NCBI RefSeq assembly: GCF_058153355.1
Contig: NZ_CM177019.1
Strand: one strand, 5' to 3'
Length of the DNA: 64,000 nucleotides
The position numbers were made by a program. Below are positions 33,001-36,000 of this stretch, piece after piece (the stretch's first letter is position 1; each line of letters starts with the position of its first letter).

Positions 33001-36000
33001 TAAAAGCCCTCTACCATGCTGAAAGGTGCGCCATTGCTGGCTTTTTGTGGTGCTTGGTAGAAGTGGTAGAGGGGGGGAGGCACAACTCAAAACTTTTTAA
33101 ACGAGGGGGTAAAAACAAAAATGCACACATCAGGAAAACTTAATAATCAGAAGAAACCACATAACCGCACTATTGACCTTACAGAGCACTGGCTGAGGTT
33201 GGCGATAAAAATCATCGATCGCAACACGGGAGAAGGATACGCAAAAGCACATCCCGAACTGATAAGCGCATTTATGACCACGGCGGCGGCAAACTTTGCC
33301 ACGCTGACAGAACGGGAGATTGCCGAAGCGGAACAGGTAACAACCATCAACGTTAAAACCGGAGAGGTGGAATCATGACAGCACAGATATCAGCTTACGG
33401 GCGGCTGGTGGACGACCCGCAGGTAAAACAGACCAGCAAGGGCACACCGATGACGCTGGCGCGTATGGCGGTATCTTTACCATGCAGCCAGGCACAGGAC
33501 GGGCAGGCGACGTTATGGCTGTCGGTCATCGCATTTGGCAAACAGGCCGACTTCCTGGCTAAACATCAGAAAGGCGACCTTATCAGCGTATCCGGCGCAA
33601 TGCAGGTAAGCCAGTGGACAGGCCAGAACGGCGAAACGCGGCAGGGATGGCAGATTATCGCAGACAGCGTAATCAGTGCCAGAACGGCGCGACCGGGCGG
33701 CAAAAAAGGCCAGCAGGGCCAGACTACTGACGCACTGAACAGGGCGAAACAACAGGCGGGCAATGATGATCCGTACGGGGATAACATACCGTTTTAATTC
33801 ACAACAGCGAACAGACTACTTACTGAGGAAAGTATGACAAAGCTGACCATTAACAGAAAACCTAAAGGTATTTATGACACACCGCAAAAAACGATTCAGG
33901 AGGAACTGGAGCAGCAGGATAAAGCCACTCTGGCACATACAGTGATGCCCAATAACCAGAAAGTGCAACCGAAGCTTACAGAAGCAACACCGTGGCAGCA
34001 TATGACCAGACGCCAGAGAAAGAACCGCAGACGTATTAATCGCCTTATTGAGTTATGGCCAGAACTATTCAACCGGGAAGCACCGAAACCATTAAAAAAA
34101 GGGATATTCGACGATCTGATACAGGATATTGCTGTCAGAGAACTGACCTTTGGTCCCGGGGTGCTACGTGCAGCAATAACATCTTATACACAATGCCCTC
34201 GCTATTACCGTGCATTAATGTCCGGTGATGTACGTTACGACATGAAAGGCCGGCCATGTGGCAAGGTAACACCGAAAGAGCAGCGTGACGCAGAAGCACA
34301 ACTAATGGCGTTGCATGCACAGCGCGAATGCCGGCACAGGACAACCAAGAAAGAGAAAAGTGTATGATTCACGACAGCAAAGCGGAAGCACTGGAAGCGC
34401 GTGGCCTGTACCGGAGAGCGGCGGCGCGGTGGGCTGAGGTCATCATGCTGGCGAATGATGACAAGGCACGGGAGCAGGCGGCAAAACGTCGCGCGGAATG
34501 TATCCACAAGGCAGCACGCCCACCAGCAAGGCAGGATAATTTCGGGGAGATGCGCGAAACCATCAGCCGGGCACATGCCGGGATGGGATTACATCAGCCC
34601 AATGGTAAGGCATTCAGGAAATACCCTGGATCGAAAAACTGCAGTCAGTGACGGAGGCCGGGATTTTTCCCGGCTTTTTTGTGCCAGTAAAAAGCCCGCA
34701 GCCAGAAGTGTTGCGGGCTTTGTTTTTCAGGTGATTGAAGTCAATGGGAAGAACGCGATCATCATGCGTTATCGTTTCATGAATTGCAATGATGTAGATC
34801 GTCATTTCAGTTTATGCAATCATAACCATTGTTTTGTTCAGGAGATATGACTATGAGAAAAGCCAGCGTGAAGCCCGTTTTACTCGCTCGTGATCAGATT
34901 GAAGCATTACAGCGCATCCAGGACGAGGAACGCCGCAATTCTCCGCTGGGGATTGCTCCGAGCATTCATGAGGTTGCCCGGCGTTTAATGCAGCGGGCGC
35001 TTTATCCCGTAGAACGTCCGGCCTGATGGTCGTGATTTTTTGGTGAAAAAAGAGAGGTGATAAAAATGCCAGCAAGCAAAGAAGATTTGCGATTAAAACT
35101 GACGGAGGTGGTTAACGCTCTGTCAGAGTCGCAGGGCTGCACTCCGCAGGAGATTATCGAAATTCTGAATGCGATCCCCGCGCAGGATTTCACAAAAGCA
35201 GACGAGGATAACGCGAATCAAAACATCGTCGCGTCAGTCGAAGATGAATCCTCACTGGCAGAAGCCCAGGCTAAAGCGGATTCCGCATACAGCAATATGG
35301 CCGTCGCGCTCCTGCCCCGTTTGCTGGTGAAAAGTCGATGGATTACCGCAAGCGCGCATTAATTGGCGCACAGAGGATAGCGAAAAAATTCAGAGATGTG
35401 GATATTCGTTCCGTTTCAGATTCTGCAACGCTGGCGGTGCTGGAAGATCAGATTTACAAGGCTGCTCAGGAAAGTGCTCAGTGGGCCGTGGAAAACACGC
35501 CGGGCCATTTGGGTAAAACCGTAAGAATGGATGAAGCTGGTCGTCGTATTACTGAATATCAGGGCGATCCGAACGTCTGGCTGAACGCCTTCAAAATCCC
35601 TCCCCGTCGCCTGGTCAAAATTAACGTTGCAAGCCTCGCGGGGGCATGAAAAACGTGCTGATTTCAGCCCTGCCGGATTTGGCGGGGCTTATTGCTTATA
35701 ACCGGATAACATTATGCTTTTAACAGAAATTGAGGCGGCGAAGCAGATTCGGGACGGACAGCTACCGTCGCCTTATCAGTTTTCCAACATGTGGCTGGTT
35801 AACCTGCGTATCACAGGAACCGGAATGGCCTACCGCGCCGAAGAAAAAGAATTTGTCTGGCGTTCACCGCAAACTTATCTCAATCCGCAGTTCCTGGAAC
35901 GTTGCGCCGGAGTACCCGTCATTATCGACCATCCCGAAAGCAAAACCCTTGAAGACGTGGGCGAACGGTCGCGCATTATTGGCACCGTCATGTTGCCGTA

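What the first reader, a model, noticed from the sequence alone, without database searches (positions are those of the whole stretch)
34364..34651. PerC/Pch-family regulator encoded on a mobile island next to a type III secretion cluster
The N-terminus MIHDSKAEALEARGLYRRAAARWAEV resembles PerC/Pch-family activators. In attaching-effacing E. coli, horizontally acquired PerC/Pch homologues activate T3SS expression through Ler. Here a homologue sits on a satellite-like island directly beside ETT2, which has its own regulators (EivF, EtrA-like, YgeK-like), raising the possibility of cross-regulation.
Basis: partly seen in the sequence, partly recalled or inferred. Interest (0 to 1): 0.55.

Follow-up and report, generated by a model that had tools for sequence, protein, structure and literature searches.

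The report
PchE-type PerC regulator on phage satellite
This is an ordinary, already-annotated small PerC-family regulator gene carried by an IS-damaged phage satellite island that is integrated at the glyU tRNA gene and so lies beside the ETT2 secretion cluster; nothing in the sequence links it to ETT2.

Summary
Window 34364-34651 (+) encodes a 95-aa protein that matches Pfam PerC (PF06069) end to end (E 5.6e-32). This exact protein is already in public databases on at least 1000 contigs, named 'PerC family transcriptional regulator'.

It belongs to the subtype carried by phage-inducible chromosomal islands (PICIs):
- 89% identical to the 54-aa O157 PchE, which is a frameshift-truncated copy
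- 44% identical to EPEC PerC
- 42% identical to a 104-aa Pch-length homologue

It is the last gene of the replication operon of an AlpA-type PICI integrated in glyU. Its ATG overlaps the stop codon of a ProQ/FinO gene, and two terminators follow. The island is decayed: an IS110-family element splits the primase and an IS66-family element sits inside it.

PerC genes on E. coli PICIs are published, and PICI-borne ones have been tested on LEE1. Reports give no effect for the O157/CFT073 copies, 'some but not all' activating, and repression by EcCIMP1_025.

The position beside ETT2 follows from integrase specificity. The identical allele sits at four or more attachment sites, and at glyU with or without ETT2. 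Only 12 of 63 related islands carry a PerC gene, so it is accessory cargo. Cross-regulation of ETT2 is untested speculation. Interest is low.

The parts
34364..34651 (+). perC-family gene of the PchE/PICI subtype. 95 aa, pI 10.1, 10.7 kDa.
   Evidence: Pfam PF06069 full length, E 5.6e-32. Exact protein already annotated in public data. Third-codon-position bias.
33834..34367 (+). ProQ/FinO-family RNA-chaperone gene. Its TGA stop (34365-34367) overlaps the perC ATG (34364-34366).
   Evidence: NCBIfam FinO E 1.4e-14 and ProQ E 1.1e-13. ATGA overlap read from the sequence. The same 4-nt overlap occurs in 50 of 80 related loci.
33375..33797 (+). Single-strand DNA-binding protein gene of the island's replication operon.
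   Evidence: PHROG 44 SSB, E 1.6e-40.
34657..34727 (+). Two tandem intrinsic-terminator hairpins with T-runs, directly after perC. They mark the end of the operon.
   Evidence: Hairpin 34691-34721 from the terminator scan. RNAfold of 34652-34730 gives two stems, -39.2 kcal/mol. Conserved in related loci.
20707..20780 (+). tRNA-Gly(CCC) glyU. Its 3' end (20763-20780) is attL of the island.
   Evidence: ARAGORN. Comparison with an empty site in strain MFDS1019527.
39436..39452 (+). attR: an imperfect copy of the glyU 3' end (TTCCCTTCGCCGCTCCA). Chromosomal sequence resumes after it.
   Evidence: None of 100 dinucleotide-preserving shuffles of the window contained a match.
20906..22309 (+). Tyrosine integrase of the island.
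   Evidence: Pfam Arm-DNA-bind_3, Phage_int_M and Phage_integrase.
23288..23485 (+). AlpA-family regulator gene.
   Evidence: Pfam Phage_AlpA, E 2.8e-19.
28853..29152 (+). RgdR-like protein (DUF4222 type), 99 aa, with HGD instead of RGD at residues 20-22.
   Evidence: PHROG 285 E 3.8e-30. Homologues carry PF13973. RgdR is described in PMC3378721.
29149..30189 (+). N-terminal part of the primase/helicase (D5_N), cut off by an IS insertion.
   Evidence: Pfam D5_N, E 4.6e-15. blastn to intact genes stops at 30170.
30171..32098 (+). IS110-family element inserted in the primase gene. Transposase at 30248-31423; three exact 205-bp tandem copies of its 3' end at 31484-32098.
32108..32833 (+). C-terminal part of the split primase/helicase. 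An AT-rich region with short direct repeats, resembling the published iteron-type PICI origin, follows at about 32840-33015.
   Evidence: The published origin layout is in PMC6092414.
26000..28468 (+). IS66-family element inside the island, with an 8-bp target duplication CCTTAACC.
35714..36385 (+). DUF2213 / prohead-protease-like gene of the module downstream of perC.
   Evidence: PHROG 6216 E 1e-80; weak match to head maturation protease. Annotated DUF2213 in relatives.
36392..36919 (+). 175-aa protein with a small-terminase-like / Cox-like N-terminal HTH. Candidate packaging-redirection function.
   Evidence: PHROG 57 E 1.5e-7 over residues 1-42. Weak evidence.
38351..39276 (+). SocA/Panacea-type antitoxin-like gene plus a partner gene. 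Accessory cargo at the distal end of the island.
   Evidence: NCBIfam SocA_antitoxin E 3.5e-17; MAG6450 family E 2e-6.
39684..42152 (-). Second, identical IS66-family copy. It lies outside the island, upstream of ygeQ, with its own 8-bp duplication GAATCTTT.
44364..45113 (+). EivF, an InvF-like AraC-family regulator. It is the first ETT2 gene after ygeQ and is listed as context only.
   Evidence: NCBIfam InvF E 1.9e-54, below the equivalog cut-off.

Best explanation
The ORF is an intact PerC-family gene of the subtype carried by E. coli phage-inducible chromosomal islands (PICIs). This is the same type as PchE of O157 island OI-51/Sp7.

**Where it sits (shown).** It is the last cistron of the island's rightward replication operon: RgdR-like, primase, orf85, ssb, proQ/finO, perC. 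Its start codon overlaps the ProQ/FinO stop codon, which suggests translational coupling, and two intrinsic terminators close the operon. The island is about 18.7 kb, or about 14.3 kb without its two internal IS elements. It is integrated into the 3' end of glyU, and that integration site explains why it lies beside ETT2.

**What the protein looks like (predicted).** It is small and basic. A confidently predicted three-helix, TPR-like N-terminal domain covers residues 5-50. This domain is distantly related to ANR anti-activators. A less conserved fourth helix and a tail follow. There is no recognisable DNA-binding fold.

**How it most likely works (inferred from studied relatives).** The relatives are PchA, PchE and EcCIMP1_025. 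By analogy, it is a trans-acting accessory regulator that remodels H-NS-type nucleoprotein complexes or master-regulator activity at AT-rich loci. That would shift host surface and virulence programmes: curli down, flagella up, LEE1 unaffected or repressed. It is not a dedicated activator of the neighbouring T3SS.
For: **Family membership.**
- Pfam PerC matches full length, E 5.6e-32.
- 116 homologues were found, nearly all named PerC family.
- The exact sequence is on at least 1000 contigs.

**Subtype.**
- 89% identical to the 54-aa PchE; 44% to EPEC PerC taken from a perA-perB-perC locus; 42% to a 104-aa Pch-length homologue.
- PchE loci have the same int...SSB-ProQ-PerC layout.
- PchE is a frameshift truncation with C-terminal remnants still readable out of frame.

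**Operon position.**
- The ATGA overlap and terminators are read from the sequence.
- In 80 PerC-selected IMG/VR loci, 72 carry the RgdR-like gene and 71 the primase on the same strand. 50 have the 4-nt ProQ overlap. 21 follow SSB directly, 20 of them with a 10-15 nt gap.

**Island identity.** Integrase, AlpA and D5_N primase are confirmed by Pfam. att sites come. A syntenic glyU island exists in ETEC1747.

**Accessory status.** Only 12 of 63 RgdR-selected islands contain any PerC ORF.

**Adjacency is incidental.** The identical allele occurs at four or more att sites, and at glyU with or without ETT2.

**Structure.**
- AF2 mean pLDDT 80, about 90 over residues 1-50, with helices at 5-13, 16-29, 33-50 and 60-74.
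- All 9 PerC-family proteins tested hit NCBIfam ANR_neg_reg in register but below cut-off.

**Function of relatives (literature).**
- PchA displaces H-NS at LEE1 (PMC4764244).
- PchE represses csgD and activates flhDC/fliC (PMC6265319, PMC7369912).
- PerC genes are known PICI cargo, and EcCIMP1_025 represses LEE1 (PMC6092414, PMC11773190).
Against: - No experiment exists for this allele.
- The PchE phenotypes come from the truncated 54-aa form and mostly from over-expression.
- Direct DNA binding versus protein-protein action is unresolved for the whole family. PchA did not co-precipitate H-NS (PMC4764244).
- The island is decayed: an IS66-family element and an IS110-family element lie between the AlpA-side promoter region and perC, and the primase is split. 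The gene may therefore be poorly expressed or transcribed only from internal or IS promoters.
- The TPR-like fold match is generic for short helical bundles.
- The ANR similarity is below the curated threshold (14.9 bits against 32).
Confidence: 0.75

Rival explanations
1. One reading: a PerC/Pch-type activator that switches on type III secretion. It would act on LEE through Ler where LEE is present, and cross-activate the adjacent ETT2.
For: It is a true PerC-family member. ETT2 with its AraC-type regulator EivF lies about 10 kb away. Pch proteins bind many AT-rich, H-NS-covered horizontally acquired loci (PMC4764244), and ETT2 is horizontally acquired. PchE over-expression raised ler about 2-fold (PMC7369912).
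Against: Only 42-44% identical to the LEE-activating PerC and the 104-aa Pch type. Group 3 (PchE) had little effect on LEE (PMC6265319). For PICI-borne PerC-likes, one paper citing Porter 2005 reports no LEE1 effect for the EDL933/CFT073 copies, another says some but not all activate LEE, and EcCIMP1_025 repressed LEE1 (PMC11773190, PMC6092414). The same allele occurs at other att sites and beside deleted ETT2, so there is no co-inheritance with ETT2. No LEE is visible in the window.
Confidence: 0.08
2. An ANR-like anti-activator. The three-helix N-domain would bind the central or dimerisation region of AraC/XylS regulators, or H-NS, and down-modulate them. Candidate partners include EivF next door, GadX, or PerA/RegA-type regulators where present.
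For: In-register ANR_neg_reg hits for 9 of 9 PerC-family proteins, E down to 1e-5. The shared spacing A-x3-E-x7-A-x3-W and R-x3-C fits the published ANR signature (PMC4983702). The model shows three helices as in ANR. The 54-aa PchE is ANR-sized yet active (PMC6265319). EcCIMP1_025 represses LEE1, and its authors proposed an ANR-like role (PMC11773190). An AFDB relative 40% identical is labelled ANR family.
Against: The score of 14.9 bits is far below the 32-bit cut-off. The protein is 95 aa with an extra conserved C-terminal part that ANRs lack. Canonical PerC and PchA activate rather than repress. No interaction data exist.
Confidence: 0.15
3. A satellite life-cycle regulator. It would be made with the replication proteins after helper-phage induction, and would control the downstream packaging/interference module or helper-phage genes rather than host virulence genes.
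For: Fixed slot at the end of the replication operon, apparently translationally coupled to ProQ/FinO or directly after SSB in at least 70 of 80 loci. It lies immediately upstream of a separate module containing a protease-like gene and a small-terminase-like gene.
Against: Only 12 of 63 RgdR-selected islands carry any PerC ORF, so it is dispensable for the satellite type. O157 keeps a truncated copy. Some islands carry a second PerC gene in the distal accessory region. The downstream region is not AT-rich like known Pch targets, at about 42-50% GC.
Confidence: 0.12
4. A silent passenger: an intact ORF in a dead island that is no longer expressed at a meaningful level.
For: The primase is split by an IS110-family element, an IS66-family element lies upstream in the same operon path, and a downstream gene is probably frameshifted (against 12). 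No strong sigma-70-like promoter lies just upstream. The only + strand candidate is in the likely origin region, at 32868-32897.
Against: The ORF is identical to a widespread allele with all invariant residues. O157 pchE has a steady basal expression and a deletion phenotype (PMC6265319). IS elements often provide outward transcription.
Confidence: 0.2

Closest known systems
PchE (group 3 perC homologue) of E. coli O157:H7 island OI-51 / Sp7 / CP-933C, also called PICI EcCIEDL933
   Same: 89% identity over the 54 residues of PchE. The same island type and the same gene slot after ssb and proQ/finO, with the same ATGA overlap. Described in PMC3378721, PMC6265319 and PMC7369912.
   Different: The O157 copy is truncated to the N-terminal domain by a frameshift. 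The window's gene is the full 95-aa form. It sits at a different att site, glyU rather than the OI-51 site.
PerC (BfpW) of the EPEC EAF plasmid per operon
   Same: Same Pfam family, with the invariant core D4, G14, Y16-R17-R18-A19, R22, W23, and a similar length of 89 aa.
   Different: 44% identity. PerC is plasmid-borne, downstream of perA-perB, in AT-rich DNA. The window's gene has 58% GC and sits in a satellite replication operon. PerC activates LEE1. For PICI-type homologues the published reports differ (PMC11773190, PMC6092414).
PchA/B/C (group 1), the prophage-borne LEE1 anti-silencers of EHEC
   Same: Family membership and a likely shared mode of action: relief or remodelling of H-NS complexes (PMC4764244).
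   Different: About 42% identity to a 104-aa homologue of that length class, taken from an O55:H7 plasmid next to nleG. That this 104-aa protein represents PchA/B/C is my inference. The window's protein lacks the longer C-terminal tail. Group 3 had little effect on LEE (PMC6265319).
EcCIMP1_025, the PerC-family gene of PICI EcCIMP1
   Same: A PerC-family gene on an AlpA/primase-type E. coli PICI (PMC11773190).
   Different: Reported as about 40% identical to the EDL933/CFT073 PICI PerC-likes. It represses LEE1 in C. rodentium. Its sequence was not compared here.
ANR family (Aar, Rnr, Cnr), small AraC negative regulators
   Same: A three-helix architecture and in-register conserved residues. 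Sub-threshold profile hits for all PerC-family members tested (PMC4983702).
   Different: ANRs are about 4-9.5 kDa single-domain proteins. This one is 10.7 kDa with an extra C-terminal region and scores 14.9 bits against a 32-bit cut-off.

Membership tests
PerC family (Pfam PF06069) | A significant full-length match to the family profile. | tested here: met
   E 5.6e-32, residues 1-89 on model positions 1-89 of 90. An HMM built from 61 homologues scores 157 bits.
PerC family (Pfam PF06069) | The conserved core residues of the family are present. | tested here: met
   D4, G14, Y16, R17, R18, A19, R22 and W23 are invariant in 61 sequences and present here.
PerC family (Pfam PF06069) | Acts as a transcriptional regulator. 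| not testable with these tools
   Known only from experiments on relatives (PMC4764244, PMC6265319, PMC11773190).
PchE / group 3, PICI-borne PerC subtype | High identity to PchE, and location after ssb/proQ in an OI-51-type island. | tested here: met
   89% identity over 54 aa. Identical synteny in L005-L007 and in 50 of 80 loci.
PchA/B/C / group 1, LEE1 activators | Close sequence identity to PchA/B/C, 104 aa, on lambdoid prophages carrying effector genes. | tested here: not met
   42% identity to a 104-aa homologue. The window's protein is 95 aa and sits on a satellite, not a prophage.
PchA/B/C / group 1, LEE1 activators | Activates the LEE1 promoter. | not testable with these tools
   Reports on PICI-type homologues differ: no effect for the EDL933/CFT073 copies (PMC11773190, citing Porter 2005), 'some but not all' activate LEE (PMC6092414), and repression by EcCIMP1_025 (PMC11773190).
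ANR (AraC negative regulator) family, NCBIfam NF033650 | A score above the curated cut-off of 32 bits. | tested here: not met
   14.9 bits, E 0.018. Eight other PerC-family proteins score 9.8-25.2 bits.
ANR (AraC negative regulator) family, NCBIfam NF033650 | A small protein (under about 10 kDa) of three alpha-helices with the conserved A/E/A/W...R/C face. | tested here: inconclusive
   The N-domain has three helices and the A7/E11/A19/W23 spacing fits the published signature (PMC4983702). But the protein is 10.7 kDa with an additional C-terminal region.
Gram-negative PICI (phage-inducible chromosomal island), host element of the gene | An integrase, an AlpA-type regulator, a primase/replication module with a neighbouring AT-rich iteron-type origin, about 10-15 kb in size, its own att site, and no virion or lysis genes. 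| tested here: met
   Integrase, AlpA and D5_N confirmed by Pfam. Short direct repeats in an AT-rich stretch at about 32840-33015. About 14.3 kb without IS elements, with att sites at glyU. No capsid, tail or lysis hits among the ORFs scanned; this was not an exhaustive search.
Gram-negative PICI (phage-inducible chromosomal island), host element of the gene | Induction and packaging by a helper phage. | not testable with these tools
   This copy is probably replication-defective, because the primase is split by an IS element.

The most novel reading that the evidence does not exclude
The PICI-borne PerC proteins could be two-domain descendants of the ANR anti-activators and act by protein-protein contact. 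In that case this allele, delivered to glyU by its satellite, would bind the InvF-like AraC regulator EivF or H-NS and so set the expression state of the neighbouring ETT2 cluster. That would be a satellite-borne switch for a cryptic T3SS.
Probability: 0.07. Interest if true: 0.45.

Novelty: already known. Interest (0 to 1): 0.12.

Why it matters
It matters little for discovery. The gene, its family, its presence on E. coli PICIs and the phenotypes of its closest studied relative (PchE) are all published. The exact protein is already annotated in many public assemblies.

The useful points are corrective:
- Physical adjacency to ETT2 results from tRNA-Gly integration and is not evidence of a regulatory link.
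- The gene is of the PICI/PchE subtype. PchE had little effect on LEE, and reports on other PICI-borne PerC homologues are mixed.
- PerC occupies a fixed, apparently translationally coupled slot behind ssb or proQ/finO, yet it is present in only about one fifth of related islands.
- The family's N-domain looks ANR-like. This gives a concrete, cheap hypothesis to test: protein-protein action on AraC-type regulators or H-NS.

Tried and rejected
1. **PerC as a core satellite gene.** Its fixed, coupled slot in 80 PerC-selected loci suggested this. I rejected it because only 12 of 63 loci selected through the RgdR-like gene have any PerC ORF.
2. **Inversion or composite transposon formed by the two identical inverted IS66-family copies.** Rejected. 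Each copy has its own 8-bp target duplication, and gene order matches the ETEC1747 island.
3. **A structured RNA after perC.** The only Rfam hit, ncr1175 at 34655-34724, scores 32 bits against a gathering threshold of 60. It is simply the double terminator.
4. **A solved structure of a relative.** None exists. The only PDB hit, at E 0.12, is a designed coiled coil.
5. **An AT-rich, H-NS-type target next to perC.** The island is about 45-60% GC, apart from the likely origin region and the stretch around and beyond attR.
6. **The longer ORF from 34328 and the overlapping ORFs on both strands.** Not supported by homologues or by the codon-position pattern.
7. **Porter et al. 2005 and Abe et al. 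2008.** Neither is held in the library. Statements about them are taken from papers that cite them.
8. **Phage records.** Only 2 weak tblastn matches among 50,697 phage records. This subtype belongs to satellites and is not seen on sequenced phages.
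Full report
**1. Observation.**

An ORF runs at window 34364-34651 (+). It has an ATG start and a TGA stop and encodes 95 aa beginning MIHDSKAEALEARGLYRRAAARWAEV.

- Pfam PerC (PF06069) matches residues 1-89 to model positions 1-89 of 90, E 5.6e-32.
- PHROG 994 matches at 3e-35, and several PHROG 'transcriptional activator' families also match.
- All residues invariant across 61 homologues are present.
- Homologues start at the same methionine, so the longer mechanical ORF from 34328 is not the gene.
- Differences from eight homologues fall 124/136/259 on codon positions 1/2/3, which confirms the frame.
- It is the only PerC-family ORF in the window.

**2. What surrounds it.**

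The flanks are E. coli core DNA, 99.1% identical over xdhA-actS-glyU.

*Island boundaries.*
- glyU, tRNA-Gly(CCC), is at 20707-20780.
- I compared the window with an empty site in strain MFDS1019527, where glyU is followed after about 230 bp by the GH15 gene ygeQ.
- The inserted DNA runs from the tRNA 3' end to an imperfect copy of that end at 39436-39452.

*Gene content.* The island contains, in order:
- a tyrosine integrase
- an AlpA regulator
- an AntA-type gene
- an RgdR-like DUF4222-type gene
- a D5_N primase/helicase
- an AT-rich stretch with short direct repeats, resembling the published iteron-type PICI origin (layout in PMC6092414)
- an 85-aa ORF, then SSB, a ProQ/FinO-family gene, and perC
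- a separate module after the terminators, with a DUF2213/protease-like gene and a protein with a small-terminase-like HTH
- a SocA/Panacea-type pair at the distal end

No capsid, tail or lysis genes turned up among the ORFs I scanned, though I did not search every ORF. Without its two internal IS elements the island is about 14.3 kb. This is the published architecture of Gram-negative PICIs (PMC6092414). A syntenic island sits at glyU in strain ETEC1747.

*Decay.* This copy is damaged.
- An IS66-family element (26000-28468) lies inside it.
- An IS110-family element (30171-32098) splits the primase.
- A gene downstream of perC looks frameshifted.
- A second, identical IS66-family copy (39684-42152) lies outside attR. 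Both copies have their own 8-bp target duplications, so the 11-kb segment between them has not been inverted.

*ETT2.* To the right come ygeQ, an InvF-like AraC regulator (EivF, 44364-45113), SctC and the rest of ETT2.

**3. Anatomy of the gene's slot.**

The perC ATG (34364-34366) overlaps the ProQ/FinO TGA (34365-34367). Two hairpins with T-runs follow at 34657-34727, with -39.2 kcal/mol for the 79 nt after the stop codon.

I fetched 80 IMG/VR loci through the PerC alignment and found:
- 72 carry the RgdR-like gene and 71 the primase on the same strand.
- 50 have exactly the same 4-nt ProQ/PerC overlap.
- 21 have perC directly after SSB, 20 of them 10-15 nt downstream.
- Most have a terminator after it.

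So perC is, by rule, the last cistron of the satellite's replication operon.

That sample was chosen through PerC. I therefore sampled related islands independently, through the RgdR-like gene. Only 12 of 63 loci with at least 5 kb downstream contained any PerC-family ORF. PerC is thus optional cargo in a fixed slot and is not a core satellite gene. [quoted passage not shown]

**4. Which PerC.**

| Compared with | Identity | Source |
|---|---|---|
| 54-aa protein that NCBI names PchE | 89% | |
| EPEC PerC, read from a perA-perB-perC plasmid locus | 44% | |
| 104-aa Pch-length homologue next to nleG on an O55:H7 plasmid | 42% | |

- PchE loci show the same int...SSB-ProQ-PerC layout.
- Their DNA shows that PchE is a frameshift truncation. 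The C-terminal half (...ISRTQKEMGLHQPNGSAFRKW) is still readable out of frame.
- The window's gene is therefore the intact form of the PchE/PICI subtype.
- The exact 95-aa sequence is already public on at least 1000 contigs as 'PerC family transcriptional regulator'.
- It is essentially absent from sequenced phages, with 2 weak hits.

**5. Is the neighbourhood with ETT2 meaningful?**

I looked up the identical protein in public assemblies. It lies in islands flanked by:
- yicC (one place shown, 12 similar places not shown)
- a yejM-type sulfatase gene
- an aldehyde dehydrogenase gene
- actS/glyU (7 of the 10 places shown)

At glyU the right-hand neighbour varies:
- ETT2 export genes in L093, L094 and L096
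- a second integrase in L095 and L098
- unrelated genes in L092
- yqeG-yqeF-kduI-kduD-type genes with ETT2 entirely missing in L091

This integrase occupies glyU in 80 of 5426 complete genomes. The wider perC region matches in up to 8 places per genome. Adjacency to ETT2 is therefore explained by the integrase's target and carries no evidence of co-function.

**6. How it probably works.**

*Structure.*
- No relative has a solved structure.
- The AlphaFold model has mean pLDDT 80, about 90 over residues 1-50. It gives three helices (5-13, 16-29, 33-50), then a linker, a fourth helix (60-74) and a low-confidence tail.
- Foldseek against AFDB returns PerC-family models, plus one 40%-identical protein labelled ANR family.

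*ANR similarity.*
- Nine of nine PerC-family proteins tested, including EPEC PerC, hit NCBIfam ANR_neg_reg in register (protein residues about 5-52 on model positions 7-54).
- E-values range from 1e-5 to 0.67, all below the 32-bit cut-off.
- The spacing A7-x3-E11-x7-A19-x3-W23 and R42-x3-C46 fits the published ANR signature (PMC4983702).
- I infer that the N-domain is ANR-like. The authors of the EcCIMP1 study raised the same idea (PMC11773190).

*Experiments on relatives.*
- PchA activates LEE1 only when H-NS/StpA/Hha/YdgT silencing is present, and it lowers H-NS occupancy (PMC4764244).
- PchE, which is the N-domain alone, represses csgD and curli and raises flhDC/fliC and motility. It had little effect on LEE (PMC6265319, PMC7369912).
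- On PICI-borne PerC homologues the sources differ. One paper, citing Porter 2005, says the EDL933 and CFT073 copies did not affect LEE1, and shows that EcCIMP1_025 silences LEE1 in C. rodentium (PMC11773190). Another says some but not all PICI-coded PerC homologues activate LEE (PMC6092414).

*Best-supported mechanism.* The protein is a small trans-acting modulator of nucleoid-protein or master-regulator complexes, with pleiotropic effects on surface and virulence genes. It would be made whenever the island's replication operon, or an internal or IS promoter, is transcribed. The steps shown here are family, subtype, operon position, accessory status, mobility of the allele among att sites and the predicted fold. 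The steps inferred are the molecular target, the direction of regulation, and expression in this decayed island.

**7. Rivals.**

Possible only in the generic sense that Pch proteins act at AT-rich, H-NS-covered islands. The subtype and the lack of linkage argue against it.
- **ANR-like anti-activator of AraC regulators such as EivF.** The most interesting option not excluded, but it rests on sub-threshold similarity.
- **Satellite life-cycle regulator.** Weakened by the 12 of 63 prevalence and by the tolerated truncation in O157.
- **Silent passenger.** Plausible given the IS damage, though the ORF is perfectly conserved.

**8. Novelty and verdict.**

The finding is real but ordinary. PerC genes on E. 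coli PICIs, the PchE subtype, the RgdR neighbour and their cross-talk with LEE are all published (PMC3378721, PMC6092414, PMC11773190, PMC6265319, PMC7369912). Automated annotation already names this exact protein. I rate it 'already known' with low interest. What remains is a cheap, testable question: whether PICI-type PerC proteins act ANR-like on AraC regulators or H-NS, and whether ETT2 is among the targets.

Noticed in passing
window 30171-32098 (repeats at 31484-31688, 31689-31893, 31894-32098): The IS110-family element that splits the primase carries three exact tandem copies of its 205-bp 3' non-coding end. Each copy ends in the IS terminal inverted repeat (CACGGAAAGTCATATC) and starts with AGCGCT, the same 6 nt as the target flank at 32099. 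In IS1111-type elements this end is where the guide (seek/bridge) RNA is encoded. This could be a real amplification or an assembly artefact. Rfam found nothing there.
   Followed up: partly
window 28853-29152: The island also encodes a 99-aa RgdR homologue. RgdR is the OI-51 regulator that activates LEE T3S and represses motility in O157. This copy has HGD instead of the RGD motif at residues 20-22. The published R20C variant from strain ED1a is inactive (PMC3378721).
   Followed up: partly
window 26000-28468 and 39684-42152: Two 100% identical IS66-family copies lie in inverted orientation 11.2 kb apart, one inside the island and one between attR and ygeQ. Each has its own 8-bp target duplication (CCTTAACC and GAATCTTT). 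These are two independent recent insertions, with no rearrangement between them so far.
   Followed up: yes
window 38351-39276: A SocA/Panacea-domain antitoxin-like gene overlaps a 147-aa partner gene (weak MAG6450-family match) at the distal end of the island. It is probably toxin-antitoxin or defence cargo.
   Followed up: partly
L005 9001-9280 (O157-type PchE locus): The 54-aa 'PchE' used in published over-expression studies is a frameshift-truncated PerC homologue. It retains only the ANR-sized three-helix N-domain, and the C-terminal half is still readable out of frame. This implies that the N-domain alone is enough for the reported curli and flagella phenotypes.
   Followed up: partly
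L005 16294-16590, L006 14835-15131, L007 15671-15967: OI-51-type islands carry a second, divergent PerC-family gene (98 aa, MVHDDKAEELEAKGLWRRAANRW...) in the distal accessory region, in addition to the one behind proQ. The window's island has no second copy.
   Followed up: no
window 33834-34367 compared with loci L009-L041: Loci whose PerC is 95-100% identical to the window's have ProQ/FinO proteins only 65-75% identical to the window's. The boundary between these two overlapping genes appears to be a recombination junction, showing the mosaic make-up of these satellites.
   Followed up: no
window 35057-35649: Two overlapping ORFs (35057-35362 and 35338-35649) correspond to a single 192-aa gene in the ETEC1747 island (L001 12613-13191). 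This is probably a frameshift and another sign that this island copy is decaying.
   Followed up: partly
window 20906-22309: The integrase ORF is 467 aa, whereas the glyU islands of other strains have 404 aa. The extra length seems to come from an upstream start and a read-through C-terminal extension. I did not examine this further.
   Followed up: no
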